Of a stretch of DNA of 64,000 nt, positions 7,280 through 55,474 are shown in pieces; positions within the stretch are counted from its first letter, which is position 1, and every line of letters begins with the position of its first letter. A model generated the notes under the pieces. The model ran no database searches, was not told where the DNA came from, and saw nothing but the letters and a program-made list of their open reading frames with translations. The stretch lies in NCBI GenBank assembly GCA_000989185.1, contig LBNX01000002.1, forward strand, positions 358,012 to 422,011, in the 5' to 3' direction. The stretch is from a candidate division TM6 bacterium GW2011_GWF2_28_16. Its GTDB lineage: Bacteria > Babelota > Babeliae > Babelales > UASB340. Made by a program: the position numbers and the translations under genes.

Positions 7280-7310
7280 TTAAAAGTTTGTAAAAAAAGG
7301 GAGTTTGATT

Positions 7311-8339: not shown

Positions 8340-8840
8340 ATGAGCGAAAATAGTAAAATTATTCTTAATGGAATGCGAGATATAAGAAGTTTTGCATTCC
8401 ACATACTTTATGCTGCTGAATCTTTTGATTATGCTATTTCTGTAGATGAAATTGTACAAAATTTTAGAGATGGTTATGGTCTTGAAATTGAAGATGACTC
8501 TAAAGCCATTTTAATGGCTTTTAATACAATTCAAGAAAGACAAACTCTTGATGAAATTATAAAGCCATTATTAAAAAATTGGAAAATAGATCGTCTTGGG
8601 GTTTGTACTCTTTTAATTTTGCGTATGGCTATTTGGGAAATACAACAAAGATTATTGCCTCCTTCTATAATAATTAACGAAGCTATAGAGCTAGCTAAAG
8701 ATTTTGCAGAAAAAGATTCTTATAAATTTGTAAATGGCATTCTTGATGAAGTTTGTAAAAATTTAAACATAACTGATCAAGATGAAGCTTACGCAGGAGT
8801 AAATAATCATGAGCCAGAAGATAACTCAGATATTAAATAG
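8340..8840 (+). CDS. nusB: Transcription antitermination factor NusB
   Basis: IINEAIELAKDFAEKDSYKFVNGILDEV C-terminal NusB signature; size about 160 aa. Confidence 0.85.
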   Translation: MSENSKIILNGMRDIRSFAFHILYAAESFDYAISVDEIVQNFRDGYGLEIEDDSKAILMAFNTIQERQTLDEIIKPLLKNWKIDRLGVCTLLILRMAIWEIQQRLLPPSIIINEAIELAKDFAEKDSYKFVNGILDEVCKNLNITDQDEAYAGVNNHEPEDNSDIK

Positions 8841-43253: not shown

Positions 43254-43916
43254 ATGATAAAAAAAATATTTTTACTTATATTATTTTCGCAAATATATTC
43301 AAATGTTTTTTGCATGCAAGATAAACTTAAAAAAAATTGTGGGCTGACAGAATTGCATTTTATTTTGTTTGATAATCCTACTGTTAAAGAACTTGAGAGT
43401 GGATATTCTTTGGATTCAGAAAATTTAAATACATTTGTTGCTGGTTTGAAGCGATTAGAGTGTGCTTTATCTAGAGTAGATATTTTTCAAAGAGCACCAT
43501 TTTTTATGTGCTTTTTAACTAATAATGAGATAAATTTAGATTTAATTGTTTATTTAATGAAAAAAAAGGCGCCAATTGGTTCTGGAGCTTTGGATGAAAA
43601 ATATAAAGAAAGGGCTCAAGATCTTTTAAGTTCTAAAGATATTGATGAGAATAACTTATTTCATTATGCAGCTTATTATAAACATTTAGAACTTATAGAA
43701 TTTTTTTGTAAAAACTGTGAATATAAAGATTTACATATGCAGAATAAAAATAAAGATTCTATTATGGATATTATTTTAGACACAGATGATGAAGTTTTTA
43801 TAAAAGCTTGCTGGAATATTTTAATTAAATATTTTAATGCACATAAATTTAAAATAGAATATTATCCTAAAGAAAGAGAAAAAAGTAGAAAAATATGTTG
43901 TTGTGAGCAATTTTAG
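43254..43916 (+). CDS. Secreted ankyrin-repeat-like protein ending in CCCEQF; tandem paralog of 42505..43161
   Basis: SD AGGAA. Signal peptide ...YSNVFC/M. NNLFHYAAYYKHLELIEFFCKNC. C-terminus KICCCEQF. The last 18 nt are nearly identical to the paralog. Confidence 0.7.
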   Translation: MIKKIFLLILFSQIYSNVFCMQDKLKKNCGLTELHFILFDNPTVKELESGYSLDSENLNTFVAGLKRLECALSRVDIFQRAPFFMCFLTNNEINLDLIVYLMKKKAPIGSGALDEKYKERAQDLLSSKDIDENNLFHYAAYYKHLELIEFFCKNCEYKDLHMQNKNKDSIMDIILDTDDEVFIKACWNILIKYFNAHKFKIEYYPKEREKSRKICCCEQF

Positions 43917-43925
43917 ATTAAATTT

Positions 43926-45179
43926 ATGGGGAGAGATATGTCAAAGTTTGATGCTCAAAAATTAAAAAAAGATTTTATGTTTTTTGAACATAATAAAAAT
44001 TTAATTTATTTAGATAGTGCAGCGACTACTCAAAAACCCAAACAGGTAATTCAAACTTTAGTAGATTTTTACGAAAAATATAATTCTAATGTTCACAGGT
44101 CTATACACGAAATGGGCGAAGCTTCGACTTCATTATACGAGCAGGCTCGACAGGATATAGCGAAATTTTTTAATGCATATCCTGAAGAAGTTATATTTAC
44201 ATCTGGAACTACAGAGGGAATTAATTTTATTGCAGATACCTGGGGCAGGGATAATCTAAAATCTGGTGATTATATAGTAACAACGCAAGTAGAGCACCAT
44301 GCTAACTTTTTGCCTTGGTTAAGATTAATAAAAAGAAATAATGCCAAATTAAAGTTTTTAGAATTAGATATAAAAACTTTTTTTATAAAAAATAATTTAG
44401 ATGATAATAATTTTTGGGATAAAAATATTAAATTATTATCGATATCTGGTAATTCGAATATATTAAGTGACTTTTGGCAAGATAATAACTTGCAAGAATT
44501 TATTGATAAAGCGCATTCTATTGGGGCTAAAGTTTTATTAGACGCTTCGCAAATGGCACCATGCAAAAAAATAGATGTAAAAAAATTAAATATAGATTTT
44601 ATGGTTCTCTCTGGTCATAAAATGTTGGCACCTACAGGTATTGGCGTTTTATTTATAAAAAAAGAATTACACGATAAAGTTGAACCATACAGAGTTGGAG
44701 GCTCTATGGTGCAAGCTGCATCTTTTAATGATGCAATATGGAAACAAGCACCAGATAAATTTGAAGCTGGAACTCCTGCAATAGCTCAGGCAATAGGTTT
44801 GGGCCAAGCTGTAAAATATCTAGAAAAAAATATTAATTTTAAAGAATACGAAAAGCACACAGCTAATTTATGTAGTTTATTAATAGATGGTTTATTAAAA
44901 ATAAAAGATATAAATATTATAGGTAATATAGAACAACTTAAAAAAACTGGGCATTTAGTTAGCTTTTATTTGCCCTATATTCATGCGCATGATCTTAGTG
45001 GATTTTTGGCAGGATTGGGCGTTGCTGTGCGAAGTGGGCATCACTGTGCACAGCCATTAGCATCTGTGTTGGGATTAGTTTCTACAGTTCGTGTAAGCTT
45101 TTATATTTATAGCACTGTAAATGACGTAGAAATTTTTTTAGATAAATTAAATGAGACCATAAAGTTTTTTAGAAAGTAG
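43926..45179 (+). CDS. sufS: Cysteine desulfurase, SufS type
   Basis: YLDSAATTQKP, PLP-Lys context LSGHKMLAPTGIGVL, active-site RSGHHCAQP. The start may be ATG 43938. Confidence 0.9.
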   Translation: MGRDMSKFDAQKLKKDFMFFEHNKNLIYLDSAATTQKPKQVIQTLVDFYEKYNSNVHRSIHEMGEASTSLYEQARQDIAKFFNAYPEEVIFTSGTTEGINFIADTWGRDNLKSGDYIVTTQVEHHANFLPWLRLIKRNNAKLKFLELDIKTFFIKNNLDDNNFWDKNIKLLSISGNSNILSDFWQDNNLQEFIDKAHSIGAKVLLDASQMAPCKKIDVKKLNIDFMVLSGHKMLAPTGIGVLFIKKELHDKVEPYRVGGSMVQAASFNDAIWKQAPDKFEAGTPAIAQAIGLGQAVKYLEKNINFKEYEKHTANLCSLLIDGLLKIKDINIIGNIEQLKKTGHLVSFYLPYIHAHDLSGFLAGLGVAVRSGHHCAQPLASVLGLVSTVRVSFYIYSTVNDVEIFLDKLNETIKFFRK

Positions 45180-45182
45180 TTT

Positions 45183-45566
45183 ATGAATAATAAAATTTAT
45201 CAAGAAAGATTAATGGAGCATTTTAAAAACTCTATCTATAAAAACAAAATAGCAAATCCAGATTTTTCTAGTGGCCAGCAAAACCCATCTTGTGGTGATA
45301 GCATTTTAATTGAGGGTAAGTTGGGTGTAGACTCAGATACTGGAAAAAACATAATAAAAGAATTAAGTTTTAATGGTTCTGGTTGCGTTATTAGTCAGGC
45401 AGCAGCATCGATTTTAATAGAAAATTGCTTAGGTAAAACTGTAGAAGAAATATTAAAGCTTGACTCAAATGATATTATTAAAATGTTAGGTATAGAGTTA
45501 GGGCCAAATAGAATTAAGTGTGCTTTATTGTCTTTGGAGGCGTTAAAAGCTAGTTTGAAAAAATAA
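45183..45566 (+). CDS. sufU: Fe-S cluster assembly sulfur-acceptor/scaffold, SufU type
   Basis: NPSCGDSI, GSGCVISQA and RIKCALL, the three conserved Cys. Lies directly after sufS. Confidence 0.85.
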   Translation: MNNKIYQERLMEHFKNSIYKNKIANPDFSSGQQNPSCGDSILIEGKLGVDSDTGKNIIKELSFNGSGCVISQAAASILIENCLGKTVEEILKLDSNDIIKMLGIELGPNRIKCALLSLEALKASLKK

Positions 45567-45589
45567 TTTTAAATAAAAGGGGGAGATTT

Positions 45590-47230
45590 ATGTTAAAAAA
45601 TATAAAATATTATTTATTAATTTTATTTTTGATAATATTTAGTGTAAATCTAAAATCGAATACAGAAAATATTATAAATTTTGAAGGTGATAGCATGCTA
45701 GATATTCAAATTACAGAAAAAAGTTTTTGGCAAAATGATGTAGAAGGTTACGTCTTTTTGTTAAAAGAGGGGCTTTATTCTACTGGTCAAGATACAGACT
45801 TTGAAAAAGTAGAAAAAGAATATTATCCAAATTTAAGAGACATTTTATCTAAGCATAAATTTACAGGAAAATTTGGTGAGATTTTTGTTTTAACAGGAAC
45901 AAAAAACAATAAACTTGTACAGTTTATATTTGCAGGCTTAGGTAAACTTGATACAACGTGGAACTATGAACTGGAAAATTTAAGAAGAACAATAGGATCA
46001 GTTGTTTTAAAATTAAAAGAATTAGAAATAAAAACAGCTGTTCTTGAATTACCTGCAGATGATAAACCTTTTGGTCTTATAAGAGATAGATTAATAAGAC
46101 AGGTTGTAATTGCAGCTCTTATGGCTAATTATGAATTTACAGAATTTAAAACAGATAAAGAGGGTAAAGAAAAACTTGAATATAAACTTTTAATTTATCC
46201 AGGTGATAAACAAGAACAAACTTATGTATTAGGCTTGCAAGAGGGTTTAATAATTGGTAATGCTACAAATTTTACAAGAATGTTACAAGATTTGCCTGCA
46301 AATTATTTAAATCCAAAAGCTCTTGCAGAACAAGCTAAAATTTTGGCAGATGAGCATAATCTAGAATGTAAAGTTTTAGGAGTTAAAGAAGCTCAAAAGC
46401 TTGGGATGGGTGGCTTTTTGGCTGTTAGCTCTGGTTCAGATAATGAACCACAATTTGTTATTTTAGAATATAATAATGACAAAAAAGATGTGCCAACTAT
46501 AGCTCTTGTTGGTAAGGGAGTAACATTCGATTCTGGCGGAATAAGCTTAAAACCTTCAGATTCTATGACAGGCATGAAGTTTGATATGTCTGGTGCTGCG
46601 GCAGTCTATGGTGCATTTAAAATTATTGCACAACTAAAACCAAATGTTAGAGTTATTGGCATTACACCACTAGTAGAAAACATGCCAAGTGGTAAAGCTT
46701 GCAGACAAGATGATATAATTAGATTTTTGAATGGCAAAACTGCAGAGATCAAAAATACAGATGCAGAGGGCAGATTAATTTTAGCTGATGCACTTTCGTA
46801 TGCAGAAAAATTTTATAGCCCAGATGTTATTGTTGATATAGCTACTTTAACTGGTGCATGCTTGTACGCATTGGGTCATTCGTTTACAGCTCTTATGACA
46901 TTAAACGATGATATTGGAACAAAATTGCAAGCAACTGGTTTAGTTACAGGTGATAGAGTTTGGCCATTGCCTTTAGATAAAGATTTTAAAGATGCCATTA
47001 AATCTGAAGTTGCAGATATTGCAAATATTGGTGCCTCAAATTATAAAGCCGGAACAATTACAGCAGCATGGTTTTTGAAAAATTTTGTTGAAAAAGCAAA
47101 ATGGGCTCATTTAGATATTGCTGGTACTGCAGACGGTGTTCCTGGAGTTAGTTATTTAGGCAAAGGTGCAACTGGTGCAGGCGTTAGACTTATGTCTGAG
47201 TTTGTTTTAAATTATAATAAAAACAAGTAA
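45590..47230 (+). CDS. pepA: Leucyl aminopeptidase (M17), possibly with an N-terminal signal-like extension
   Basis: VGKGVTFDSGGISLKP, MKFDMSGAAAV, NTDAEGRLILAD, ATLTGAC. Two candidate starts: 45590 (SD AAGGGGGAG) and 45695 (SD GAAGGTGA). Confidence 0.9.
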   Translation: MLKNIKYYLLILFLIIFSVNLKSNTENIINFEGDSMLDIQITEKSFWQNDVEGYVFLLKEGLYSTGQDTDFEKVEKEYYPNLRDILSKHKFTGKFGEIFVLTGTKNNKLVQFIFAGLGKLDTTWNYELENLRRTIGSVVLKLKELEIKTAVLELPADDKPFGLIRDRLIRQVVIAALMANYEFTEFKTDKEGKEKLEYKLLIYPGDKQEQTYVLGLQEGLIIGNATNFTRMLQDLPANYLNPKALAEQAKILADEHNLECKVLGVKEAQKLGMGGFLAVSSGSDNEPQFVILEYNNDKKDVPTIALVGKGVTFDSGGISLKPSDSMTGMKFDMSGAAAVYGAFKIIAQLKPNVRVIGITPLVENMPSGKACRQDDIIRFLNGKTAEIKNTDAEGRLILADALSYAEKFYSPDVIVDIATLTGACLYALGHSFTALMTLNDDIGTKLQATGLVTGDRVWPLPLDKDFKDAIKSEVADIANIGASNYKAGTITAAWFLKNFVEKAKWAHLDIAGTADGVPGVSYLGKGATGAGVRLMSEFVLNYNKNK

Positions 47231-47260
47231 TTAACAAAAAAATATTTTACAATTTTTTAA

Positions 47261-47302
47261 ATATAAAGCCCATAATATTTTTATGGGCTTTATATTTTTT
47301 TA
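47261..47302. terminator. Hairpin terminator between convergent pepA and 47320..47721
   Basis: ATATAAAGCCCATAA-TATTT-TTATGGGCTTTATAT, a perfect 15-bp stem followed by T7. Confidence 0.8.
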
Positions 47303-47319
47303 ATAAATTAATTAAATTA

Positions 47320-47721
47320 TTAAATTTTTTTTAATAATTTTGATATTTCACTTAGAGTAGCATAATGTATTGGTTGTATTACTGTAATGCCTTTTATTTT
47401 GTAAGTTTCCTTTTTTGTCTCTTTATCTAGCTCACCTTTTATGTATTTACCATCTATTTCTATTTTTTCTCCAGGTTCAAAAAGTATTAAACAAGCATCT
47501 TCTGGTACTTTAATTTTATTTTCGCCATCTGCTAAAATATTATTATAGTTACAGTAAATCATACATATACCTGTAACATGCCATGGTTCTGCTGGCGTGA
47601 AATCTTCTGTTAGTTCAAATGTTTTATTTTTTATAATTTCTTGTTTTTGAGAAGACTCCATGGCACTAATATTTGAAAATAAGAAAATAGTTAATGCAAA
47701 TTTTAATAAATTTTTATTCAT
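47320..47721 (-). CDS. Small secreted protein, one copy of the module found in 48067..48756
   Basis: Signal peptide MNKNLLKFALTIFLFSNISA/M, nearly identical to that of 48067..48756 at the nucleotide level. Start overlaps the upstream stop (TAATG). Confidence 0.55.
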   Translation of the reverse strand: MNKNLLKFALTIFLFSNISAMESSQKQEIIKNKTFELTEDFTPAEPWHVTGICMIYCNYNNILADGENKIKVPEDACLILFEPGEKIEIDGKYIKGELDKETKKETYKIKGITVIQPIHYATLSEISKLLKKI

Positions 47722-48029
47722 TAAAGATCCTTTAATATTTTAGCAAATTCTTCATCTGTTGCCATTTCGCCTTTTAAAATTGAACAATTTTTATCTTTCC
47801 AATATGATTGCATATTCATATTTTTTCGGGTTACTTTTTCTGCCATTTTGCGGTCGCTACCAAGCTGGCTCATAAAAAATTGTACACCACCCTCAAAGAT
47901 TTCTTCGCAAGATTTTACGCTTCCGTCTGGGTTAACACAGTATAGACAGAATATTGAATTTTCATCTTTGAGTGCAAAATCTTCTTTTTTGCTCATGGGC
48001 ATTCCGCATGATTCGCAGTGTTTTTGCAT
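47721..48029 (-). CDS. Zinc-ribbon domain protein (Zn_ribbon_2-like)
   Basis: CESCGMPM...FCLYCVNPDG, a four-Cys ribbon at the N-terminus followed by a helical tail, as in the family with CxxCgMP...YCxxC as recalled. Confidence 0.65.
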   Translation of the reverse strand: MQKHCESCGMPMSKKEDFALKDENSIFCLYCVNPDGSVKSCEEIFEGGVQFFMSQLGSDRKMAEKVTRKNMNMQSYWKDKNCSILKGEMATDEEFAKILKDL

Positions 48030-48066
48030 AATTTTATCCTTTAATTCATTTTTGAATATATTAAAA

Positions 48067-48756
48067 TTAAATTTTGGCCAGATCTATAAACTCTATAGAA
48101 TATATTTTATCAAAAATATTGGAATCTATTGCATCTATTCTTGAATTATTCGAAACAATTATATTGTTTGAATTTCCATTTAATTTTAAATTATAAAAAA
48201 ATAACACACTATTTTTTGAAATATTAATAAAGCCCGTATTTTCTAGTGTTAATTGATGATTGTTGCCATTAATAAGACATACTCCATTAAATTCATTATA
48301 GCACTCTTTCCAAACTGTATCTTGTGTGAGTTCTATTATTTGATTTGAATAAGAATTATGTGTTGTAGTTAAAGTTGTGGGTTTATTTTTTTTAAAAATA
48401 TTTGCAATATTTGTATGAGATTTAGTTATTTCACTATTATATATAGAAGAATTAATTAATATAAGTTTGGCATTTGAATTTATCACAAATGTTCCAATTT
48501 CAGATTTTAAAACATGTGTATTTATTATTATTAATAATGAATTATCATTGATTGATAAAATTGCATCTTCATCCAAATTTAATTCATTATTATTGCTATT
48601 TATTATACAAATTCCATCTATTGAATGATTTTCTTTCCAAAGTGTGTTTTTTATTAAATTTAATACCTCGTTTTTATGAATTATTGTATTATTCATGGCA
48701 TTAATATTTGAAAATAAGAAAATAGTTAATACAAATTTTAATAGATTTTTATTCAT
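48067..48756 (-). CDS. Secreted protein with two copies of a ~90-aa beta-rich module
   Basis: SD AAAGGAG. Signal peptide MNKNLLKFVLTIFLFSNINA/M. Internal repeat: NTLWKENHSIDGICIINSNNNELNLDEDAILSINDNSLL and DTVWKECYNEFNGVCLINGNNHQLTLENTGFINISKNSVL. Confidence 0.6.
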   Translation of the reverse strand: MNKNLLKFVLTIFLFSNINAMNNTIIHKNEVLNLIKNTLWKENHSIDGICIINSNNNELNLDEDAILSINDNSLLIIINTHVLKSEIGTFVINSNAKLILINSSIYNSEITKSHTNIANIFKKNKPTTLTTTHNSYSNQIIELTQDTVWKECYNEFNGVCLINGNNHQLTLENTGFINISKNSVLFFYNLKLNGNSNNIIVSNNSRIDAIDSNIFDKIYSIEFIDLAKI

Positions 48757-48996
48757 TAAAGCTCCTTTATATTTAAAATAATATTCGAATATATTTTATA
48801 TTAATTTAATTAAAAAAATAGCTTTTTATTATAAAAAATATATAAAAGTTGCATATGGTAGGTTTTTTACAGAAAAGAATATACCGTGTATAATTATGAA
48901 TCCAATTGGGGGTAATATTCATAGTGATAATGAATATGTAAGTTTAAGTAGTTTAATAAAATTAAAAAAAATATATAAAAAATATTTGAGAGAATT

Positions 48997-49602
48997 ATGA
49001 ATTTAAATAGTTTTTTTCCATGGATAGCGCAAGTAATTTTTTTTGTAGGGCTTTTGCCACAAATTAGGCTTAATTATAAATTAAAATCTACAAAGGGACT
49101 TAGTGATTTTTTATTTATAGGCTATTTTTTGGGTTATAGTTTTTACACTTTTTATGCATATTGTTTAAATTTGCCATTGGCTCATAAAATAATGGTGCCA
49201 TTAGGTCTTATGGCGGCATTAGTTTTAGTATTTCAGAGGTTTTATTATTCTGATAATAAAAATGGTGATAGAAAATTAAAATTATTTTTTGTTTTAGTGA
49301 CAATGTTTTTTCTGGGATTATTATTTTTGGCTATAAATAATAGAGAACTTATTGGCCATATATCAGGCTGGATTATGATGCTAAATTGGGCTATTTACCA
49401 AATTCCCCAGATAATTAAAAATTATAAAAATAAAGCTGTTAAAGGCTTAAGCTTTGGACTTGTTAGCATAATTGGGCTTGGAAATTTTACAGAATTTATT
49501 GTTATGCTTGTTTTGGGTATGCCGATACAGAGTTGCTTAAATAATTTTAATGGTATTTTAACTTATATTATTTATTTATTTCAGTTTATAAAATTTAAAT
49601 AA
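48997..49602 (+). CDS. 7-TM PQ-loop family transporter
   Basis: Two PQ-loop motifs, LLPQIRLNYKLKSTKGLS and YQIPQIIKNYKNKAVKGLS. Seven predicted TM segments. Confidence 0.75.
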   Translation: MNLNSFFPWIAQVIFFVGLLPQIRLNYKLKSTKGLSDFLFIGYFLGYSFYTFYAYCLNLPLAHKIMVPLGLMAALVLVFQRFYYSDNKNGDRKLKLFFVLVTMFFLGLLFLAINNRELIGHISGWIMMLNWAIYQIPQIIKNYKNKAVKGLSFGLVSIIGLGNFTEFIVMLVLGMPIQSCLNNFNGILTYIIYLFQFIKFK

Positions 49603-49614
49603 ATTAAATTTTAG

Positions 49615-50271
49615 TTAGTTTTTTAAAATTAAATTTTGGTCTGAGATATTTTTTTCTAAATTGTTTAAGTCACAGCTTTTATTGTAAATTATTTTTGGTA
49701 TATCATTGGCTAACCCGGGATTTATTTCTTTTGTAATTAATATTATTGGTTCTCTAGAATCATTGTTACTAATTATTTCTTCTCTTTCGATAATATAACT
49801 AACATCTTCAAATTCAAAGTTATCTATTGTACCAATTAAAATTATGCCATTTAAATTTAAGCGTGCGCCTCGTTTTAATATTATTTTTGCGCCGGATTTT
49901 AGAATTAAATAACTGATATCTTCTTTATCAGGCTTATCTATGTAATCTATGTTATTTATATAAAGAGATTCGTATTTTTCTATAATTAAATTTGTATTTT
50001 CTGGTACTATTAATCTTTGATTTGTTTCAAGTTCAATAATATTATTTGTTTTGTTTATTCTATATTTTTTGGAAAAAAATTTAATATCTTCTTGTGATAG
50101 TGTTTGTTTTAATTTTGGAGAATATATTAATTCTTGTTCTGTTTTATAAAAATCATAACGATTTTCGTTTTTGGGATTTTCAAATAAACTTGTTATTTTT
50201 CTAAAAAAACCAAAAGAATTTGTGAAACTAAAAAATAATAAAAAATTTAATAAAATAACTTTTTTTAACAT
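49615..50271 (-). CDS. Secreted beta-rich protein, unknown function
   Basis: ATG 50271 (MLKKVILLNFLLFFSF...) follows a GGAGG SD; the track start is TTG 50289. Strand-like repeats LILKSGAKIILKRGARLNLNGIILIG. Confidence 0.5.
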   Translation of the reverse strand: MLKKVILLNFLLFFSFTNSFGFFRKITSLFENPKNENRYDFYKTEQELIYSPKLKQTLSQEDIKFFSKKYRINKTNNIIELETNQRLIVPENTNLIIEKYESLYINNIDYIDKPDKEDISYLILKSGAKIILKRGARLNLNGIILIGTIDNFEFEDVSYIIEREEIISNNDSREPIILITKEINPGLANDIPKIIYNKSCDLNNLEKNISDQNLILKN

Positions 50272-50503
50272 TTTGATTAAAACCTCCAATAAATTGCTAT
50301 AATTTATATTAAAAGTATGGCAAATTTACTTTTTGTTGTCGAAAGCCTTTGTCTTTTAAGTTTAAAAACTCAAAAATATGTTAAATAAAGCCAAAATATG
50401 AATTATTTAAAAAGCTTGTTTTTTAATATAAAAAAGTTTTATATTGCATTTGTGAGGGGGCGTGAAATAAGGGAATGTCGGTGTTTGGTTTTGGGGGAGT
50501 TCG

Positions 50504-51157
50504 ATGATTAATTCTCCAATATTGACAACCATTATCACATGGGTTGTCAATATTTTTTTCTCTATAGCAGTTGTTCCTCAGGTCTATTTAAATTACAAAA
50601 ATAAGTCTGTTCGAGGGCTTAGTGATTTGTATATAGTAGGCTATTTTAATGGTTATGCTTTTAATGTTTTGTATATTTATGCACTTGGGTTTCCTGTAGC
50701 CTACAAAATTAGGGCTATAATAGCTTTTTTTGTGATATCTATATTGATTTATCAGCGGTTTTTATACAATAATAGTGTTTTAAATAACAAAACAAAAAAG
50801 TTATATTTAGGAAACTTTTGTTTTTTATTATTTATAGCGTTTTTAATTTATTTAAACCCAATAAAATTTGGTAATTTTGCAGGATGGGCACTTGTTATAA
50901 TATGGAGTATTTACCAGTTACCACAACTTTTAAAAGTTTATAAAAGCAAATCTGTAGAAGGTTTTAGCTTTTTTTTAATATCTTTTGTTGGAATTGGTAA
51001 TTTAATAGAATTCTGGGCAGCTTACCTTTTGAATTTACCATTACAGACTAGTGTGACTGCATTAAGAGGCGTTTTTGTTTACTTAATATTTGTATCACAG
51101 TTTTGGGCTTATAAATACAAATTTGAACTAAAAACCCCAATAATTTCAGAAAAATAA
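50504..51157 (+). CDS. 7-TM PQ-loop family transporter, paralog of 48997..49602
   Basis: VVPQVYLNYKNKSVRGLS and YQLPQLLKVYKSKSVEGFS. Collinear with the first PQ-loop protein. Confidence 0.75.
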   Translation: MINSPILTTIITWVVNIFFSIAVVPQVYLNYKNKSVRGLSDLYIVGYFNGYAFNVLYIYALGFPVAYKIRAIIAFFVISILIYQRFLYNNSVLNNKTKKLYLGNFCFLLFIAFLIYLNPIKFGNFAGWALVIIWSIYQLPQLLKVYKSKSVEGFSFFLISFVGIGNLIEFWAAYLLNLPLQTSVTALRGVFVYLIFVSQFWAYKYKFELKTPIISEK

Positions 51158-51319
51158 TAAATATTGTTGTTTTTAGTGTTTTTTGACTAATAAAAACAAA
51201 AAGATATATTTTTGTTGCTAAATATTTTCCAATTGTAATATAATATATATGAAAAGTTGAGTTAACTTATTAAAATAGGGATTTAAAATAAGTTTAAAAG
51301 AACAGTTTTGGGGGGAGTT

Positions 51320-52102
51320 ATGAATAAAAGGTTATATCTATTAACAACATTATTGGTTGTTTTTTTTGCAATTTATTCGGATTCTGAAAAAAAGATAGAA
51401 AATAGTTTGCCAGATTCTGAGCTTACTGCCCCTGTGCAGCAGGTTGAGCAGGTAGCTCAGGTTGTTGAGGCAGAAAAAATTGAGGTTCCTGTTGAGTCGG
51501 TAGCTCAGATTATTGAACCTGTTGTTGAGGTTCCAGTTGAGCAGGTAAAGGTCGAAGAAATTGAACCAGTTGTGTTACCTGCTACAGAAGTACCAGAAAA
51601 TATTGTAGAAAAAGTTGAGTCTGTTGCAGTTGAACAACCTGTTGAGCCGGTAGTTCCAGTTGTTGAGCCAGCTATTATTGAGCCTGCAATTGTTGAATCA
51701 ACTATCGACCCAGTTATCGATCAGTCTGTTGGTGATCTTATTGTTCCTGAAGAATCAGTGATGCCGGAACCAGAAGAAGTTGTTGAGCTTGAAGAAGTTC
51801 AGGACGTTGCACAGCCTGATGGTGAAGAAAATTTAGATGAAATGGAAGAAATTGAACAGGAGCAAGATGTTAGTCAAGACCAAGTTCCAGAAGAAAATCC
51901 TGTTGAGCCTGTTGAGTTAGATGAGACTCAAGCAATAATTTCTGAAAAAGCACCCGAAATTGATGTATTAGGTTCTGTAGAAGAAACAAAGCAAGATATC
52001 AGTGATGCTGATATGAATGCTGTTCAAGCAGAAGACGAAGAGCTTTATGATGAACTTGCAGATTTAACTTTTGGTTCTGATATAGATACAGACTTAGAGT
52101 AA
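51320..52102 (+). CDS. N-terminally anchored, extremely acidic protein with degenerate P-V-E repeats
   Basis: ATG 51320 (MNKRLYLLTTLLVVFFAIY) after a GGGGGGAG SD. Degenerate repeats VEQV / EPVVEVPVEQV / VEPVVPVVEP. D/E-rich C-terminus. Confidence 0.6.
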   Translation: MNKRLYLLTTLLVVFFAIYSDSEKKIENSLPDSELTAPVQQVEQVAQVVEAEKIEVPVESVAQIIEPVVEVPVEQVKVEEIEPVVLPATEVPENIVEKVESVAVEQPVEPVVPVVEPAIIEPAIVESTIDPVIDQSVGDLIVPEESVMPEPEEVVELEEVQDVAQPDGEENLDEMEEIEQEQDVSQDQVPEENPVEPVELDETQAIISEKAPEIDVLGSVEETKQDISDADMNAVQAEDEELYDELADLTFGSDIDTDLE

Positions 52103-52127
52103 GTATATAAATAAAAATTACCTTTTG

Positions 52128-52155
52128 GCCCGGTTTAATCCGGGCTTTTTTATTT
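52128..52155 (+). terminator. Rho-independent terminator
   Basis: GCCCGG-TTTAAT-CCGGGC followed by TTTTTTATTTT. Confidence 0.75.
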
Positions 52156-52173
52156 TGTATATTTTTTATTGAC

Positions 52174-52203
52174 CTAGATCCTGAATAGAGTTCAGGATGG
52201 CAA
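52174..52203 (+). repeat. GC-rich hairpin element, family H (TGAA-arm variant)
   Basis: CTAG-ATCCTGAA-TAGAG-TTCAGGAT-GGCAA. Sits 19 nt after the terminator and 44 nt before the NurA-like start. Confidence 0.85.
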
Positions 52204-52246
52204 ATATACATGACTGAATACAAAAATAAATGGGTCAATAATTATT

Positions 52247-53509
52247 ATGTTAGATAAAAATAAATTATATTTACAGATTAAAAAAAATGCGCAAAAACTT
52301 TTTAGTGATTTTACTCAAGAATTTGATTTAGCTAAAAAAAAGTGGCAAGAAATTTCTTGTGATATTAATTTTAAAAATAAAGTTGAATTTTCTCATGCTA
52401 GTTTTTTAACTCCAACTTGGCTTGGTAATTTAAATGATAAATTTAAGATCGATAATAAAATTTTTAATTATTCTATATTATCTGTAGATGGTTCTCAGGT
52501 TTATCCAGATCGTAATATATCTGGAGCAAATTGTTGCTTAATAAATATCGGTTCATGTTTAATTAAATATAATAATACAGGCAGCTCCGTCAAAATAGGC
52601 TCTGAGCCACTTTTATTTTTGTTAGATGATTTATTTGAACATGCTATCCCGAGTAAGGACCCGGGATCTAGTGATCTTGTTGATTTAAAGCGAGAAGAAC
52701 TTGAACTTTTAAACTTGTTAAATATAACTTTAGAACAAAATATAGATATAGCATTTGTAGATGGTACTGTAATATTTTGGTTTTTAGAAAGTAAGCCAGA
52801 AGAAGTAAAAAATTTATTTTTAAATTTATATTTAAATATTTTACAAAAATTTTATGATCAAAAAAAAATAATTGCAGGTTTTATAAGCTTTCCCAAAAGC
52901 AAAGAGCTTATTAATTTAATTAAAATTGGCTTGTGTAAGTACGATTACGCTGACTGTATTGCTTGTTATAAAATTTATAATAATAAAGCGTTTGATAAAG
53001 TGGATTCGACTACGCAGCAAGCTGCTGCGCTCACCACGAACGCCCCGTTCGCCCTGAGCGAAGTCGAAGGGGTTGCCATTTCTAAGAATGCTCAGCCCTG
53101 TATGCTTGTTGATAATTTAATAGATACTAAAATATTAAGAAATTTTTTAAATATAAATGAGCGAACTACAGTTTTTTTTAGTAATTCAAAAATTGTAGAT
53201 AGTTATCCAGATTATCTAAAACCCTGTTTTTTTTATTTAAATGCAGGGGTAGAAATTGTACGTATAGAGACTTTTAAATATATTGCACAAGATGAAAAGT
53301 TAATTAATCTTATTGCAAGCGTAGCTCTTGATCAAATTAATAAGGGGCTTGGTTACCCTGTAACTTTGGCTCAAGCGCACGAAGCTGCAGTTGTAAAAGG
53401 ACCAGATAGAGAGTTTTTTTATAATTTATTACAAAAAGAAGCTCTTGATCAATCACGAAGATTAATTTACTCTCAAAAGAGTATAAAAAAACGTGGCACT
53501 GGGGTATAA
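52247..53509 (+). CDS. NurA-like nuclease domain protein carrying two in-frame repeat insertions
   Basis: YSILSVDGSQVYPDR (NurA Asp motif), IAFVDGTVIFW, C-terminal GYPVTLAQAHEAAVVKGPDREFF. GC-rich inserts at 52643..52671 and about 53003..53075. Confidence 0.6.
   Translation: MLDKNKLYLQIKKNAQKLFSDFTQEFDLAKKKWQEISCDINFKNKVEFSHASFLTPTWLGNLNDKFKIDNKIFNYSILSVDGSQVYPDRNISGANCCLINIGSCLIKYNNTGSSVKIGSEPLLFLLDDLFEHAIPSKDPGSSDLVDLKREELELLNLLNITLEQNIDIAFVDGTVIFWFLESKPEEVKNLFLNLYLNILQKFYDQKKIIAGFISFPKSKELINLIKIGLCKYDYADCIACYKIYNNKAFDKVDSTTQQAAALTTNAPFALSEVEGVAISKNAQPCMLVDNLIDTKILRNFLNINERTTVFFSNSKIVDSYPDYLKPCFFYLNAGVEIVRIETFKYIAQDEKLINLIASVALDQINKGLGYPVTLAQAHEAAVVKGPDREFFYNLLQKEALDQSRRLIYSQKSIKKRGTGV
52643..52671 (-). 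repeat. Family H hairpin (CCGG-arm variant), in frame inside the NurA-like CDS
   Basis: GCT-ATCCCGAG-TAAGGA-CCCGGGAT-CTAG, 7 of 8 stem pairs; encodes AIPSKDPGSS. Confidence 0.8.
53003..53075. repeat. GC-rich palindromic insertion (family G) in frame inside the NurA-like CDS
   Basis: Inverted termini TTCGACTACGC (53005..53015) and GCGAAGTCGAA (53058..53068), 10 of 11 complementary. Internal palindrome CGCAGCA-AGC-TGCTGCG. Encodes DSTTQQAAALTTNAPFALSEVEGVA. Confidence 0.7.
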
Positions 53510-53521
53510 TATTGGGCTTTT

Positions 53522-55474
53522 ATGTTAATAGTAAAAAAATTAAGTTTAAACTTTGGTCAGCAAGTAATTTTTGAAGATATTTCGTTTACTGTAAATTCAA
53601 ACGAACGAATTGGTCTTGTTGGGCGTAATGGTTCTGGAAAAACTACTTTATTAAAAATAATAAGTGATTTTAATCAATCAGGTACAAAAGACTTTGATTC
53701 TGGCCAAATAGAGATATATAAAAATAAAAAAATTGCATACTTGCCACAGCAGGTTATTTTAGAGTCAAAAAAAGATATTTTACACGAAGCGCTAAATAGC
53801 TTTATAACAGATTTGGGTTATTTAGGTGATTTAATTCATGAATATAATGATCTTGAAAATAAAATTAATAGTTTACATAATCACGAAGTAAATAATCTTG
53901 AAAGATATTCGAATTTGCAAATTCTTTTAAACGAGCTTAATTTTGAAAAAAAAGTTTTAGAAACTAAAAAGATTTTATTGGGTTTAGGCTTTAGTGAAAG
54001 TATCTTAAAAGATAGCGTACAAACGCTTTCTGTTGGTTGGAAGATGCGCTTGGTTTTGGCTAAATTGTTATTGCAAAAGGCTGATTTTTATTTATTTGAC
54101 GAACCAACAAACCATTTAGATTTAGTAGCAAAAGATTGGTTTTTAGCATTTTTGCAAAATGCTAACTTTGGTTTTATGTTAGTTTGTCATGATAGATATT
54201 TTTTAGATAAATTATGTTCACAAATTTATGAATTATCTTTAGGCCAATTAAATATTTATACAGGTAATTATTCTAAATATTTGGAACAAAAAGAACATGA
54301 TAAACAACTTTTAGAACAAAAATATATAGAACAACAAAAATATATTAAAAAAGAGATGGCTGTAATAGATCGCTTTAGGGCAAGTGCATCAAGATCTAAT
54401 ATGGCGCAGAGTAAATTAAAAGCATTAGAAAAATTAGAACTTGTAAAAATAGAACCAATGCAAAAAATTGTTAAAATAAAATTTAATAATGTAAAACAGG
54501 CTGGCAAAATAGTTTTGACTGTTAAAAATTTAGCAAAATCTTTTGGTGATAAATTAATTTTTAAAAATGTAAATTTTGAAATTGATCGAGGCGAAAAGGT
54601 TGCAATAGTTGCGCCAAATGGTCAAGGTAAGTCGACTTTATTAAATATGATTATGGAGAATATTCTGTGTGAAGACCCGGGATCTAAAATTATTTTTGGA
54701 CATAATGTTTTTCCGGCATTTTTTGAACAGGATCAAAATAAAACTTTAAATCCAAAAAAAACTATATATCAAGAAGTAGAAGATAGCTGTAAAACAACAG
54801 AACAAAGACAAAAAATTAGGACTATTTTGGGCTCGTTTTTGTTTTCTGGTGATGATATCGAAAAAACTATATCTGTTTTAAGTGGTGGTGAAAAAAATAG
54901 AGTTGCAATGGTAAAGGTTCTTTTGCAAGATGCGAATTTTTTAATATTGGATGAACCTACAAATCATCTTGATATAGAATCAAAAGAAGTACTATTGTCT
55001 GTTCTAAAAGATTATCCTGGGACTATATTATTTGTTTCTCATGATCGTGATTTTTTGAATAATTTATCAACAGCTATAATAGAATTAAAACAAGATTCTA
55101 GCTATAAATATAAAGGTAATTATGATGCATTTTTGGAACAAAAAGATGCACAGCAAAATGTAATCGAAAATGTTAAAAATATAGAATTAAGAGCTAATCA
55201 TATTGAGCATGCATTGTCATCCCGGGCAAGGACCCGGGATCCAGAAATAAAACATTCAAATAATTTCTCCAAAAATGATTATGAAACTCGTAAACAAATA
55301 AGAGCATTAGAAAGTAAGATAGAAAAACAAGAAAAAGAACTTGAACTTTTAACTAAAAAGTTTGAAAATTTAGAATATGGATCTAAAGATTATAATAAAG
55401 TTTTAAATGAAATTAATAAAATAGAAAAAGAGCTAAATGAAAATTTAGCTCTTTGGGAAATTTTAAATAGTTAA
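53522..55474 (+). CDS. ABC-F family ATPase (Uup/YheS-like, C-terminal coiled coil)
   Basis: Two ABC cassettes (GRNGSGKTT / LSVGWKMR / YLFDEPTNHLD; APNGQGKST / LSGGEKNR / LILDEPTNHLD), no TM domain, coiled-coil tail. Contains a family H copy and a half-copy in frame. Confidence 0.9.
   Translation: MLIVKKLSLNFGQQVIFEDISFTVNSNERIGLVGRNGSGKTTLLKIISDFNQSGTKDFDSGQIEIYKNKKIAYLPQQVILESKKDILHEALNSFITDLGYLGDLIHEYNDLENKINSLHNHEVNNLERYSNLQILLNELNFEKKVLETKKILLGLGFSESILKDSVQTLSVGWKMRLVLAKLLLQKADFYLFDEPTNHLDLVAKDWFLAFLQNANFGFMLVCHDRYFLDKLCSQIYELSLGQLNIYTGNYSKYLEQKEHDKQLLEQKYIEQQKYIKKEMAVIDRFRASASRSNMAQSKLKALEKLELVKIEPMQKIVKIKFNNVKQAGKIVLTVKNLAKSFGDKLIFKNVNFEIDRGEKVAIVAPNGQGKSTLLNMIMENILCEDPGSKIIFGHNVFPAFFEQDQNKTLNPKKTIYQEVEDSCKTTEQRQKIRTILGSFLFSGDDIEKTISVLSGGEKNRVAMVKVLLQDANFLILDEPTNHLDIESKEVLLSVLKDYPGTILFVSHDRDFLNNLSTAIIELKQDSSYKYKGNYDAFLEQKDAQQNVIENVKNIELRANHIEHALSSRARTRDPEIKHSNNFSKNDYETRKQIRALESKIEKQEKELELLTKKFENLEYGSKDYNKVLNEINKIEKELNENLALWEILNS
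54672..54686 (-). repeat. Family H half-copy (one arm plus flank) inside the ABC-F CDS
   Basis: AAGACCCGGGATCTA is identical to the 3' half of copy 56623..56652; encodes EDPGS just after the second Walker A. Confidence 0.6.
55214..55244 (-). repeat. Family H hairpin (CCGG-arm variant), in frame inside the ABC-F CDS
   Basis: TTGTC-ATCCCGGG-CAAGGA-CCCGGGAT-CCAG, a perfect stem; encodes LSSRARTRDPE in the linker before the coiled coil. Confidence 0.85.

What the first reader, a model, noticed from the sequence alone, without database searches (positions are those of the whole stretch)
47320..51157. Duplicated divergent module: secreted beta-rich protein (-) paired with a 7-TM PQ-loop transporter (+), plus a secreted/Zn-ribbon/secreted operon
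The pattern secreted protein on the minus strand, a 215-240 nt divergent intergenic region, then a PQ-loop transporter on the plus strand occurs twice in a row (48067-48756 with 48997-49602, and 49615-50271 with 50504-51157). The PQ-loop proteins are clear paralogs with two PQ motifs and seven TM segments. That is the full-length architecture typical of eukaryotic lysosomal/vacuolar PQ-loop exporters (cystinosin/PQLC2-like), not the 3-TM bacterial SemiSWEET type. The first secreted gene heads an apparent operon that continues into a cytosolic-type zinc-ribbon protein and a third secreted protein built from one copy of the same ~90-aa module (...T.D..W.....G.C.I..NN..L...). The repeated pairing hints at a functional unit, such as a transporter plus an extracytoplasmic partner, that I cannot assign to a known system.
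Basis: partly seen in the sequence, partly recalled or inferred. Interest (0 to 1): 0.6.

Follow-up and report, generated by a model that had tools for sequence, protein, structure and literature searches.

The report
Dependentiae PQ-loop transporter array, variable neighbours
Two anciently diverged seven-helix PQ-loop membrane transporters of a host-dependent TM6/Dependentiae bacterium sit in a strongly conserved gene block, and the small secreted-protein genes beside them are lineage-specific insertions (one put there by a recent deletion), not dedicated partners.

Summary
The genes exist as described. The window comes from candidate division TM6 (Dependentiae) bacterium GW2011_GWF2_28_16. 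Both plus-strand genes are true PQ-loop proteins. Each has two PQ repeats, and PQ-A has seven predicted helices (AlphaFold pLDDT 94) with full-length fold matches to cystinosin, SWEETs and the KDEL receptor.

The "duplicated module" reading fails. PQ-A and PQ-B are old paralogues, 37% identical to each other but 65-71% identical to their orthologues in a sister genome. They belong to a conserved array of 1-4 PQ genes (types A-B-C) that lies between SufS-SufU-PepA and NurA-ABC-F in about 12 Dependentiae lineages. The secreted-protein genes occur in only 4 of those lineages.

The 229-aa gene reached PQ-A through a recent 2.7-kb deletion and replacement. The "divergent intergenic region" still holds the relic of an M20 peptidase gene. 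The 229-aa gene's ribosome-binding site and signal peptide are a 95%-identical 76-nt copy taken from the 133-aa gene.

Nothing points to a recent eukaryotic origin. The nearest relatives are Dependentiae, then Coxiellaceae-like Gammaproteobacteria. The two halves of each protein resemble each other and bacterial 3-helix PQ-loop proteins more than they resemble cystinosin.

Verdict: an ordinary though undescribed bacterial transporter family, next to orphan secreted proteins.

The parts
43926..47230 (+). Conserved upstream block: SufS (43926-45179), SufU (45183-45566) and M17 leucyl aminopeptidase PepA (45590-47230).
   Evidence: Pfam families come from the gene table. phmmer finds orthologues in the same order in every Dependentiae locus.
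47259..47297 (.). Hairpin with a 17-bp stem between the convergent PepA and 133-aa genes. It looks like a bidirectional terminator.
47320..47721 (-). 133-aa protein with a signal-peptide-like N-terminus and one A-type module. It is the last gene of the minus-strand operon.
   Evidence: An orthologue (P0021) lies directly after a Zn_ribbon_2 gene in relative L022.
47721..48029 (-). 102-aa cytoplasmic zinc-ribbon protein (Zn_ribbon_2, CxxC-x19-CxxC). Its stop codon overlaps the start of the 133-aa gene by 1 nt.
   Evidence: PF12674, E 4.1e-9, 37.4 bits against a cut-off of 22.5. The same gene pair is found in L022.
48067..48756 (-). 229-aa protein with a signal-peptide-like N-terminus and two tandem A-type modules (residues ~20-120 and ~128-229). 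The gene is lineage-specific.
   Evidence: Internal repeat: 35% identity over 54 aa, E 3e-12. The AlphaFold model has all-beta short strands; module 1 has pLDDT 75-85 and module 2 below 50. The gene is absent from close relative L022.
47659..47734 (-). Copy 1 of a 76-nt direct repeat. It covers the 3' end of the Zn-ribbon gene, the ribbon's stop codon, the start codon and the signal-peptide codons of the 133-aa gene.
   Evidence: 95% identical to 48694-48769.
48694..48769 (-). Copy 2 of the 76-nt repeat. It supplies the ribosome-binding site and signal peptide of the 229-aa gene, so the 5' end of that gene is a recent copy or a gene-conversion product.
   Evidence: It also matches L022 3273-3357 at 88%.
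48040..48801 (.). 0.76-kb segment specific to this genome. It replaces a 2.7-kb block (271-aa protein, YitT, most of the M20 peptidase gene) that is present in close relative L022.
   Evidence: blastn breakpoints: W 46205-48039 matches L022 4809-2974, and W 48802-49049 matches L022 242-1.
48857..48996 (+). Relic of the 3' end of an M20 peptidase gene, lying inside the 'divergent intergenic region' upstream of PQ-A.
   Evidence: tblastn with the M20 peptidase of L003: 81% identity over 32 aa, window 48857-48952, E 1.6e-12. The frame stays open to 48993 and reads ...FFTEKNIPCIIMNPIGGNIHSDNEYVSLSSLIKLKKIYKKYLRE.
48997..49602 (+). PQ-A: a 201-aa seven-helix PQ-loop transporter with PQ motifs at P21-Q22 and P137-Q138. 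Predicted topology is N-terminus out, C-terminus in.
   Evidence: Pfam. AlphaFold pLDDT 94.1. Foldseek against cystinosin, SWEET and KDEL receptor, TM-score 0.62-0.76. Orthologues are 56-71% identical and sit first in the array. K/R count in the cytoplasmic versus outer loops is about 15 versus 1, read from the sequence using the helix limits.
49615..50271 (-). 218-aa B-type protein with a signal-peptide-like N-terminus. It is the positional orthologue of the gene that lies between PQ-A and PQ-B in L005 and L011.
   Evidence: hhalign against B-type orthologues: probability 96%, E 2.8e-9, 34% identity over 113 columns. Position.
50504..51157 (+). PQ-B: a 217-aa seven-helix PQ-loop transporter of paralogue type B.
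   Evidence: It is 65% identical to the second-position gene of L003 and only 36% identical to PQ-A.
51308..55474 (+). Downstream flank: an acidic low-complexity protein with a signal-peptide-like N-terminus (51308-52102), a NurA-domain protein (52247-53509) and an ABC-F ATPase (53522-55474).
   Evidence: NurA PF09376, E 2.3e-23. The conserved order is shown.

Best explanation
The region is a variable slot inside a strongly conserved Dependentiae gene block: MetRS, (ankyrin proteins), SufS, SufU, PepA, [slot], a PQ-loop array, [slot], NurA, ABC-F.

PQ-A and PQ-B are two of three ancient paralogue types (A, B, C) of a compact bacterial PQ-loop transporter of about 200-220 aa. Each protein is a fusion of two 3-helix bundles joined by a linker helix (3+1+3). 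The predicted topology is N-terminus out and C-terminus in, with the PQ loops facing the cytoplasm.

By inference from solved relatives, each protein works on its own as an alternating-access carrier in the inner membrane. It would move a small host-derived solute into this biosynthetically poor bacterium. An amino acid is the most likely substrate class, and the paralogues probably differ in substrate.

The minus-strand genes encode fast-evolving, lineage-specific, beta-rich proteins with signal-peptide-like N-termini, plus a zinc-ribbon protein translationally coupled to one of them. They occupy the slot by genome history, not as transporter subunits. The 229-aa gene was placed next to PQ-A by a recent 2.7-kb deletion and replacement, and its ribosome-binding site and signal peptide were copied from the 133-aa gene.

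Shown here: family membership, fold, paralogy, synteny, the rearrangement. Inferred: transport direction, substrate class, independence of the secreted proteins.
For: IDENTITY. PQ-A matches TM6 bacterium GW2011_GWF2_28_16 at 100%.

FAMILY AND FOLD. Each protein carries two PF04193 repeats. The AlphaFold model has pLDDT 94.1 and seven helices. Full-length Foldseek matches are cystinosin, AtSWEET13, OsSWEET2b and the KDEL receptor.

OLD PARALOGUES IN A FIXED ORDER. PQ-A is 71/58/57/56% identical to the first-position genes of four other genomes. PQ-B is 65/57/50% identical to the second-position genes. A and B are 36-37% identical to each other. A neighbour-joining tree gives three clades that follow array position.

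CONSERVED SYNTENY. SufS-SufU-PepA ... 1-4 PQ genes ... NurA-ABC-F holds in all Dependentiae loci examined.

MODULE GENES ARE DISPENSABLE.
- They are found only in the window, L022, L005 and L011.
- L003/L004, L012 and L010 have 3-4 PQ genes head to tail with none.
- A profile search of 5.8 billion proteins found only 6 relatives.

REARRANGEMENT. Evidence is the M20 relic, the breakpoints against L022 and the 76-nt repeat at 95% identity.

BACTERIAL FAMILY.
- There are 155 cluster representatives at E <= 1e-30, and the best 150 listed run from 115 to 263 aa, mostly about 200-260 aa.
- Every named one among the 20 looked up is Dependentiae.
- A sister family of about 215 aa occurs in Gammaproteobacteria and Coxiellaceae.
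- The N- and C-terminal halves of one protein are 29-36% identical, with cross-HMM E-values of 1e-11 to 1e-15.
- A 3-TM PQ-loop protein from an Ignavibacteriaceae MAG is 38% identical to the N-terminal half of PQ-A.
Against: - No substrate, direction or expression data exist, so 'amino acid importer' rests on family analogy and on the neighbouring peptidase and SufS genes.
- The B-type gene has kept its place between PQ-A and PQ-B, divergent from PQ-B, in three genomes whose PQ-A proteins are only 56-58% identical. A functional link for that one pair is therefore not excluded.
- The neighbour-joining tree is quick and has no support values.
- Only 20 of the 150 best family representatives were looked up for names, and 3 of those carried an organism name.
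- Eukaryotic sequences were compared only through the PDB.
- Signal peptides were judged by a heuristic.
Confidence: 0.7

Rival explanations
1. Each PQ-loop transporter works with the divergently transcribed secreted beta-rich protein as an extracytoplasmic partner (substrate capture or regulation), and the pair has been duplicated.
For: The two pairs are physically arranged as described. The B-type gene holds the same place and orientation between PQ-A and PQ-B in the window, L005 and L011.
Against: - PQ arrays persist without any module gene in L003/L004, L012, L006, L008, L009, L010 and L018.
- In L022 the Zn-ribbon/133-aa pair is separated from PQ-A by three unrelated genes.
- The adjacency of the 229-aa gene to PQ-A arose by a recent deletion that left an M20 relic.
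- The 229-aa and 218-aa proteins are barely related.
- The PQ genes are old paralogues, not copies of a pair.
- About one third of the window's ORFs look secreted.
- Solved PQ-loop and SWEET carriers need no binding protein (established knowledge of the family).
Confidence: 0.08
2. The seven-helix PQ-loop genes were acquired from a eukaryotic host (cystinosin/PQLC2-like lysosomal exporters) by horizontal transfer.
For: The architecture is the eukaryotic 3+1+3 type, and the best fold and sequence matches in the PDB are cystinosins. Dependentiae live inside protists (general knowledge). The window also carries eukaryote-like ankyrin proteins with CaaX-like ends.
Against: - Identity to cystinosin is only 19%, at about 36 bits.
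- The match is crosswise: the C-terminal half of the query matches the first PQ repeat of cystinosin.
- TIGR00951 scores 35 bits against a cut-off of 192.
- A bacterial SemiSWEET fits one half at 25% identity and rmsd 1.3 A.
- A bacterial 3-TM PQ-loop protein is 38% identical to the N-terminal half.
- The two halves are 29-36% identical to each other, which fits a duplication within bacteria.
- The family is deep and broad in Dependentiae and has a gammaproteobacterial sister group.
- Fusion of PQ-loop units within bacteria has been proposed before (PMC5972207).
Confidence: 0.1
3. The conserved block is a cysteine-supply unit. The PQ-loop carriers import cystine or Cys-containing peptides, PepA (M17) and the M20 peptidase release cysteine, and SufS/SufU consume it for Fe-S clusters.
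For: The order SufS-SufU-PepA-(M20)-PQ holds in every Dependentiae locus. M20 ends 7 nt before PQ-A in L003, L004 and L022. Cystinosin is the founding PQ-loop carrier (PMC9385667). M17 and M20 peptidases are known Cys-Gly dipeptidases in other organisms (own knowledge, not tested here).
Against: - Gene order in reduced genomes is often conserved without any functional link.
- The slot between PepA and PQ-A holds unrelated genes in different genomes.
- The gammaproteobacterial sister family has quite different neighbours, such as LipA/LipB or penicillin amidase.
- The window genome has lost M20 yet keeps PQ-A and PQ-B.
- No cystinosin-specific residues were shown to be shared.
Confidence: 0.12
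4. The PQ-loop proteins are sugar uniporters of the SWEET/SemiSWEET type rather than amino-acid carriers.
For: The fold matches SWEETs as well as it matches cystinosin, with TM-scores up to 0.76. SemiSWEET profiles and structures are hit weakly.
Against: - Pfam PQ-loop scores 85.6 bits, while MtN3_slv scores 15.2 bits, below its cut-off of 23.7.
- NF037968 (SemiSWEET) scores 28.6 bits against a cut-off of 80.
- E166 in helix 6 is invariant, and K141 lies just after the second PQ motif. This is more suggestive of a charged substrate or proton coupling, but that is inference only.
Confidence: 0.2

Closest known systems
Eukaryotic PQ-loop / lysosomal cystine transporter family (Pfam PF04193, TCDB 2.A.43: cystinosin, PQLC2/SLC66A1, yeast Ypq1-3)
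   Same: Both have two PQ-loop repeats, a seven-helix 3+1+3 fold and an N-out/C-in topology with the PQ loops on the cytoplasmic side. Full-length Foldseek matches to human and Arabidopsis cystinosin give probability 1.00 and TM-score 0.62-0.71.
   Different: - Identity is only 17-19%.
- The proteins are 201-217 aa long, with no luminal N-terminal domain and no sorting tail.
- They are bacterial.
- TIGR00951 scores far below its cut-off.
- The best sequence match is crosswise between repeats.
- They occur as tandem arrays of 1-4 paralogues.
Bacterial SemiSWEETs / 3-TM PQ-loop proteins (e.g. PDB 4rng, 4qnc, 4x5m)
   Same: Each half of PQ-A is one such triple-helix bundle. The fit to 4rng is 25% identity, rmsd 1.3 A and TMt 0.92. 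A 3-TM PQ-loop protein from an Ignavibacteriaceae MAG is 38% identical to the N-terminal half.
   Different: The two bundles are fused through a linker helix into one chain, so no homodimer is needed. NF037968 scores 28.6 bits against a cut-off of 80.
Bacterial seven-TMH MtN3/PQ-loop fusion proteins reported by Jia et al. 2018 (PMC5972207), e.g. the Pseudoalteromonas 'PaSWEET'
   Same: These are also bacterial proteins with seven helices built from two units of the MtN3-like clan. The paper proposes duplication and fusion within bacteria.
   Different: [quoted passage not shown] The present family hits PQ-loop twice and MtN3_slv only below its cut-off. It is large (155 clusters at E <= 1e-30), centred on Dependentiae, and arranged in conserved tandem arrays. 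Direct sequence comparison with those 20 proteins was not done.
Beta-solenoid / right-handed beta-helix proteins (ice-binding proteins, tailspikes, pentapeptide-repeat luminal domain of SV2)
   Same: The A-type module is predicted as a run of short beta strands. All Foldseek matches are beta-helix or solenoid proteins. The sequence has a periodic pattern of the kind G-x-C-x-I-N-G-N-x-H-x-L-x-L.
   Different: No match is significant (best E 0.34, TM-score <= 0.24). The model is low-confidence overall (mean pLDDT 56.5). There is no Pfam, NCBIfam or PHROG hit. The proteins are very small (one or two modules).
Zn_ribbon_2 family (Pfam PF12674)
   Same: The 102-aa protein matches the whole 81-position model above its cut-off and has the four Cys ligands.
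   Different: The family has no known function. Here the gene is translationally coupled to a gene for a protein with a signal-peptide-like N-terminus, an arrangement also seen in L022.

Membership tests
PQ-loop family (Pfam PF04193) | Two PQ-loop repeats that score above the curated cut-off | tested here: met
   PQ-A scores 85.6 bits and PQ-B 74.5 bits against a cut-off of 22, with two stretches each.
PQ-loop family (Pfam PF04193) | A Pro-Gln dipeptide in the first helix of each triple-helix bundle | tested here: met
   P21-Q22 and P137-Q138 of PQ-A. P21, P137 and Q138 are invariant and Q22 is at least 90% conserved in 15 family members.
PQ-loop family (Pfam PF04193) | Seven transmembrane helices in a 3+1+3 arrangement | tested here: met
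   AlphaFold pLDDT 94.1 with seven helices. Full-length alignment to cystinosin, SWEET and KDEL receptor structures. PQ-B aligns with PQ-A almost end to end, with one gap.
PQ-loop family (Pfam PF04193) | Solute transport activity | not testable with these tools
   This needs uptake assays.
Lysosomal cystine transporter / cystinosin subfamily (NCBIfam TIGR00951, 2.A.43) | A score above the subfamily cut-off and a collinear match of both halves | tested here: not met
   35 and 31.8 bits against a cut-off of 192.35. The best PDB match pairs the C-terminal half of the query with the first repeat of cystinosin. Identity is 19%.
SemiSWEET (NCBIfam NF037968) | A single 3-TM unit of about 90 aa that scores above the cut-off | tested here: not met
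   28.6 and 29.4 bits against a cut-off of 80. The protein is a fused 7-TM chain.
SWEET (Pfam PF03083 MtN3_slv) | MtN3_slv repeats above the cut-off | tested here: not met
   15.2 bits against a cut-off of 23.7 for PQ-A, and no hit for PQ-B.
Eukaryote-to-bacterium transferred gene | The nearest relatives outside the lineage are eukaryotic | tested here: inconclusive
   The nearest relatives that could be named are Dependentiae and Gammaproteobacteria/Coxiellaceae. Bacterial 3-TM proteins are closer per half than cystinosin. No tree with dense eukaryotic sampling could be built.
Conserved transporter-plus-partner gene pair | The two genes co-occur across related genomes | tested here: not met
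   Module genes are found in 4 of about 12 Dependentiae lineages that carry the PQ array. They are absent from the sister genome, and in L022 they are separated from PQ-A.
Right-handed beta-helix / beta-solenoid fold (secreted module) | A confident model with stacked coils and a significant structural match | tested here: inconclusive
Zn_ribbon_2 (Pfam PF12674) | A full-length match above the cut-off with four Cys ligands | tested here: met
   37.4 bits against a cut-off of 22.5, covering model positions 2-81 of 81. C5, C8, C28 and C31 are visible in the sequence.

The most novel reading that the evidence does not exclude
The compact seven-helix PQ-loop proteins are an independent bacterial invention of the 'eukaryotic' 3+1+3 architecture, made by duplication and fusion of a 3-TM unit. 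The family diversified into three ancient paralogues across Dependentiae and is shared with Coxiellaceae/Legionellales-like Gammaproteobacteria. On this reading it is a transporter family specialised for life inside host vacuoles. It would use the acidic lumen to import the same solutes (cystine, cationic amino acids) that the host's own lysosomal PQ-loop exporters remove. In Dependentiae it would also be tied to the adjacent peptidase and SufS/SufU genes as a cysteine-supply block.
Probability: 0.15. Interest if true: 0.6.

Novelty: new member of a known kind. Interest (0 to 1): 0.3.

Why it matters
Dependentiae cannot make most building blocks and depend on transporters to take them from protist hosts. 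A phylum-wide, multi-paralogue array of single-chain PQ-loop carriers, with a sister family in Coxiellaceae-like bacteria, is a plausible and so far undescribed part of that import machinery. No paper in the searched library links PQ-loop proteins with Dependentiae, Coxiella or Legionella metabolism.

It is also a second, much larger example of bacteria building the seven-helix SWEET/PQ-loop architecture from 3-helix units. That bears on how the eukaryotic carriers arose.

The specific claim of the finding, a duplicated transporter-plus-secreted-partner module, does not hold up. The locus instead shows how a recent deletion and a copied signal-peptide cassette can produce a pattern that looks designed.

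Tried and rejected
1. Direct homology between the 229-aa and 218-aa proteins. BLASTP gave E 0.049. hhalign of the A-type profile against the 218-aa protein gave probability 7.7%. The two are linked only through the 102-aa protein of L011 and a weak profile-profile match (probability 51%).
2. A search for further module copies in the window. The only extra hit, 8340-8840, is a NusB-like protein and is a false positive.
3. Pfam, NCBIfam and PHROG scans of the secreted proteins found nothing.
4. A module profile search of 5.8 billion proteins gave only 6 hits, all of them close relatives from Dependentiae or unnamed metagenome contigs.
6. The promoter and terminator scan gave promoter-like hits no more frequent than in shuffled sequence (39 against 35.6 +/- 7.2). 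Only the hairpin at 47259-47297 stands out.
7. Aligning the two divergent spacers to find a shared regulatory motif showed only AT-rich similarity. It did expose the M20 relic.
It was repeated with 9 sequences.
9. Kyte-Doolittle counting of TM helices undercounted the aromatic-rich helices. It was replaced by the AlphaFold model.
10. The gene context of the gammaproteobacterial sister family (LipA/LipB, an LssY-like protein, penicillin amidase) shows no shared neighbourhood.
11. Literature searches found no prior description of these proteins in Dependentiae, Coxiella or Legionella.

Full report
SOURCE AND ANATOMY

The 201-aa PQ-loop protein is 100% identical to a hypothetical protein of candidate division TM6 (Dependentiae) bacterium GW2011_GWF2_28_16, on a 436-kb contig. 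The window is AT-rich, with GC of about 22-37%.

| Coordinates | Strand | Length | Identity |
|---|---|---|---|
| 47320-47721 | - | 133 aa | A-type module protein |
| 47721-48029 | - | 102 aa | zinc-ribbon protein |
| 48067-48756 | - | 229 aa | two A-type modules |
| 48997-49602 | + | 201 aa | PQ-A |
| 49615-50271 | - | 218 aa (224 from an upstream TTG) | B-type protein |
| 50504-51157 | + | 217 aa | PQ-B |

The divergent spacers are 240 and 232 nt. The three minus-strand genes at 48756-47320 are arranged like an operon. There is a 37-nt gap, then a 1-nt stop/start overlap, then a 17-bp hairpin at 47259-47297.

THE TRANSPORTERS

Both plus-strand proteins hit Pfam PQ-loop twice, at 85.6 and 74.5 bits against a cut-off of 22. 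They hit MtN3_slv only below its cut-off. They score far below the cut-offs of the cystinosin subfamily model TIGR00951 (35 against 192 bits) and of the SemiSWEET model NF037968 (29 against 80 bits). They are 37% identical over their full length (E 8e-48).

An AlphaFold model of PQ-A built on 15 relatives has pLDDT 94.1 and pTM 0.89. It has seven helices at 3-29, 37-56, 61-83, 92-114, 116-145, 153-173 and 177-200. Foldseek aligns it end to end with human and Arabidopsis cystinosin, AtSWEET13, OsSWEET2b and the KDEL receptor. Probability is 1.00, TM-score 0.62-0.76 and identity 13-19%. It aligns one half with the SemiSWEET 4rng at 25% identity and rmsd 1.3 A.

Using these helix limits, K/R residues cluster in loops 1-2, 3-4, 5-6 and the C-terminus: about 15, against 1 on the other side. 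This predicts N-out/C-in, the topology of eukaryotic family members (read from the sequence).

NOT A DUPLICATED PAIR

I fetched the neighbourhoods of homologues and mapped them with profile searches. Every Dependentiae locus has the same backbone: (MetRS), SufS, SufU, M17 aminopeptidase PepA, a variable slot, one to four PQ-loop genes, sometimes another variable gene, NurA, ABC-F.

A neighbour-joining tree and the identity values split the PQ genes into three clades that follow their position in the array:

- Type A comes first. The window's PQ-A is 71, 58, 57 and 56% identical to the first genes of L003, L005, L006 and L011.
- Type B comes second. PQ-B is 65, 57 and 50% identical to the second genes of L003, L005 and L011.
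- Type C comes last and is absent from the window.

PQ-A and PQ-B therefore diverged long before these genomes did. The repetition is not a copy of a two-gene module.

THE MINUS-STRAND GENES

The 229-aa protein is an internal duplication of one module (35% over 54 aa, E 3e-12). The 133-aa protein carries that module once. Related single-module proteins of 102 and 125 aa lie upstream of PQ-A in L011. I call these A-type.

The 218-aa protein is the positional orthologue of the 156-aa and 181/191-aa proteins that lie between PQ-A and PQ-B in L005 and L011 (hhalign probability 96%, E 2.8e-9). I call these B-type.

A-type and B-type are only weakly connected. Pairwise BLASTP gives E 0.049 and profile-profile comparison gives probability 51%. 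The L011 102-aa protein bridges them, with a B-type HMM E-value of about 1e-7 in a database of 296 ORFs and 41% identity over 54 aa to the L005 protein.

No Pfam, NCBIfam or PHROG family matches. A profile search of 5.8 billion proteins returned six proteins, all from the window genome, close Dependentiae relatives or unnamed metagenome contigs.

The AlphaFold model of the 229-aa protein is all-beta with short strands. Module 1 has pLDDT 75-85 and module 2 is below 50, for a mean of 56.5. The Foldseek list consists only of beta-helix and solenoid proteins, but nothing is significant (best E 0.34). 'Beta-solenoid-like' is plausible, not shown.

THE PAIRING IS NOT CONSERVED

Module genes occur in the window, L022, L005 and L011. 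They are absent from L003/L004, L012, L006/L014, L008/L015, L009/L016, L010 and L018.

- L003/L004, L012 and L010 have three or four PQ genes head to tail.
- L008, L009 and L018 have unrelated minus-strand genes for secreted proteins in the slot.
- By a crude hydropathy test, 19 of 58 ORFs in the window have signal-peptide-like N-termini, so a secreted neighbour is unremarkable.

HOW THE FIRST 'PAIR' AROSE

Aligning the two divergent spacers exposed coding-like sequence upstream of PQ-A. Its translation...FFTEKNIPCIIMNPIGGNIHSDNEYVSLSSLIKLKKIYKKYLRE, is 81% identical to the C-terminus of the M20 peptidase that ends 7 nt before PQ-A in L003 (tblastn E 1.6e-12, window 48857-48952).

L022 is a close relative with 88.5% DNA identity across PepA, the 133-aa gene and the zinc-ribbon gene. 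It has the zinc-ribbon and 133-aa genes, then a 271-aa protein, YitT and an intact M20 gene before PQ-A. The breakpoints show that 2.7 kb of L022 (243-2973) is replaced in the window by 0.76 kb (48040-48801), which is essentially the 229-aa gene.

The first 76 nt of that gene, together with its upstream ribosome-binding site (48694-48769), are 95% identical to the junction of the zinc-ribbon 3' end and the 133-aa 5' end (47659-47734). The 229-aa gene therefore borrowed its translation start and signal peptide from its neighbour. Its adjacency to PQ-A is a recent accident, and the 240-nt 'divergent intergenic region' is a deletion scar.

ORIGIN OF THE SEVEN-HELIX ARCHITECTURE

An exhaustive profile search of 1.84 billion cluster representatives found 3102 proteins at E <= 1e-3, 817 at E <= 1e-10 and 155 at E <= 1e-30. 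The best 150 listed run from 115 to 263 aa, most of them about 200-260 aa and matched over nearly their whole length. Of 20 looked up, every one that carries an organism name is Dependentiae.

A genome scan also found proteins 30-32% identical to PQ-A in two Gammaproteobacteria/Pseudomonadota MAGs. A search seeded with those proteins returned 167 proteins of about 215 aa, some named Gammaproteobacteria and Coxiellaceae. One of those loci has an LssY-like neighbour typical of Legionellales.

Within one protein, the N- and C-terminal halves are 29-36% identical, and the half-profiles hit each other at E 1e-11 to 1e-15. A 3-TM PQ-loop protein of an Ignavibacteriaceae MAG is 38% identical to the N-terminal half of PQ-A and scores 36 and 30 bits against the two half-profiles. 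That is as much as full-length cystinosin scores against the whole profile (36 bits). The best cystinosin match is also crosswise between repeats.

Jia et al. (PMC5972207) already reported 20 bacterial seven-TMH proteins of this clan and proposed fusion of PQ-loop units in bacteria. None of this proves the route. There is no positive evidence for a recent eukaryotic origin, and fusion within bacteria is at least as likely.

FUNCTION

Shown here: family, fold, topology, paralogy and synteny.

Inferred: each protein is a self-sufficient alternating-access carrier of the inner membrane that imports a small host-derived solute.

I favour amino acids over sugars for three reasons. The match is to PQ-loop rather than MtN3. 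E166 in helix 6 is invariant and K141 follows the second PQ motif. The genes also keep company with peptidases and the cysteine-using SufS/SufU genes. The last point suggests a cysteine-supply block, but the variable slot, the loss of M20 in this genome and the unrelated context of the gammaproteobacterial sister family weaken it.

The secreted proteins are most simply lineage-specific surface or host-directed proteins of unknown role. The zinc-ribbon/133-aa pair is a conserved two-gene unit (the window and L022), also of unknown role.

VERDICT

The PQ-loop family is a new, large member group of a known kind. It is annotated only as 'PQ-loop repeat-containing' or hypothetical, and I found no paper about it. 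Interest is modest.

Noticed in passing
window 42505-43161 (+) and 43254-43916 (+); L006 665-1330: Two tandem paralogous proteins of about 220 aa (phmmer E 8e-38) have signal-peptide-like N-termini and faint ankyrin hits. Both end in ...CCCEQF. The positional orthologue in L006/L014 ends in ...CSNCAMF. These ends look like eukaryote-type CaaX prenylation boxes, as on Legionella ankyrin effectors.
   Followed up: no
window 45590-45694 (start of PepA): The M17 aminopeptidase ORF has a 35-aa N-terminal extension (MLKNIKYYLLILFLIIFSVNLKSN...) that looks like a signal peptide and is preceded by a strong AGGGGGAG ribosome-binding site. Eight orthologues all start at the position of Met36 (MLDIQITEK...). 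Either PepA is exported in this lineage or the start is miscalled.
   Followed up: partly
window 51308-52102 (+); L003 7171-7773; L006 6408-7217: This is an extremely acidic, E/V/P-rich low-complexity protein with a signal-peptide-like N-terminus, lying between the PQ array and NurA. Positional counterparts exist in other Dependentiae genomes (phmmer E 1.5e-5 to the L006 protein).
   Followed up: partly
window 52247-55474 (+) and all related loci: A NurA-domain protein is always followed by an ABC-F type ATPase rather than by HerA, the usual partner of NurA. The pair is conserved in every Dependentiae locus seen.
   Followed up: no
slot between PepA and the first PQ gene in L003, L005, L008, L009, L011, L012, L018, L022: The slot holds quite different cargo in different genomes:
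- a GNAT-like 266-aa protein, YitT and M20
- an SBF-family transporter
- a 219-226-aa membrane protein
- unrelated minus-strand proteins of 165-359 aa with signal-peptide-like N-termini
- small DNA-binding-like ORFs

It behaves as a recombination or insertion hotspot.
   Followed up: partly
L019 and L020 (Gammaproteobacteria / Pseudomonadota MAGs), PQ genes at about 6960-7605: A sister family of compact seven-helix PQ-loop proteins (about 215 aa, 24-32% identical to PQ-A) is common in metagenomes, with 167 hits, some named Coxiellaceae. Its neighbours are unrelated to those in Dependentiae: LipA/LipB and an LssY-like protein in L019, penicillin amidase and a GGDEF protein in L020.
   Followed up: partly
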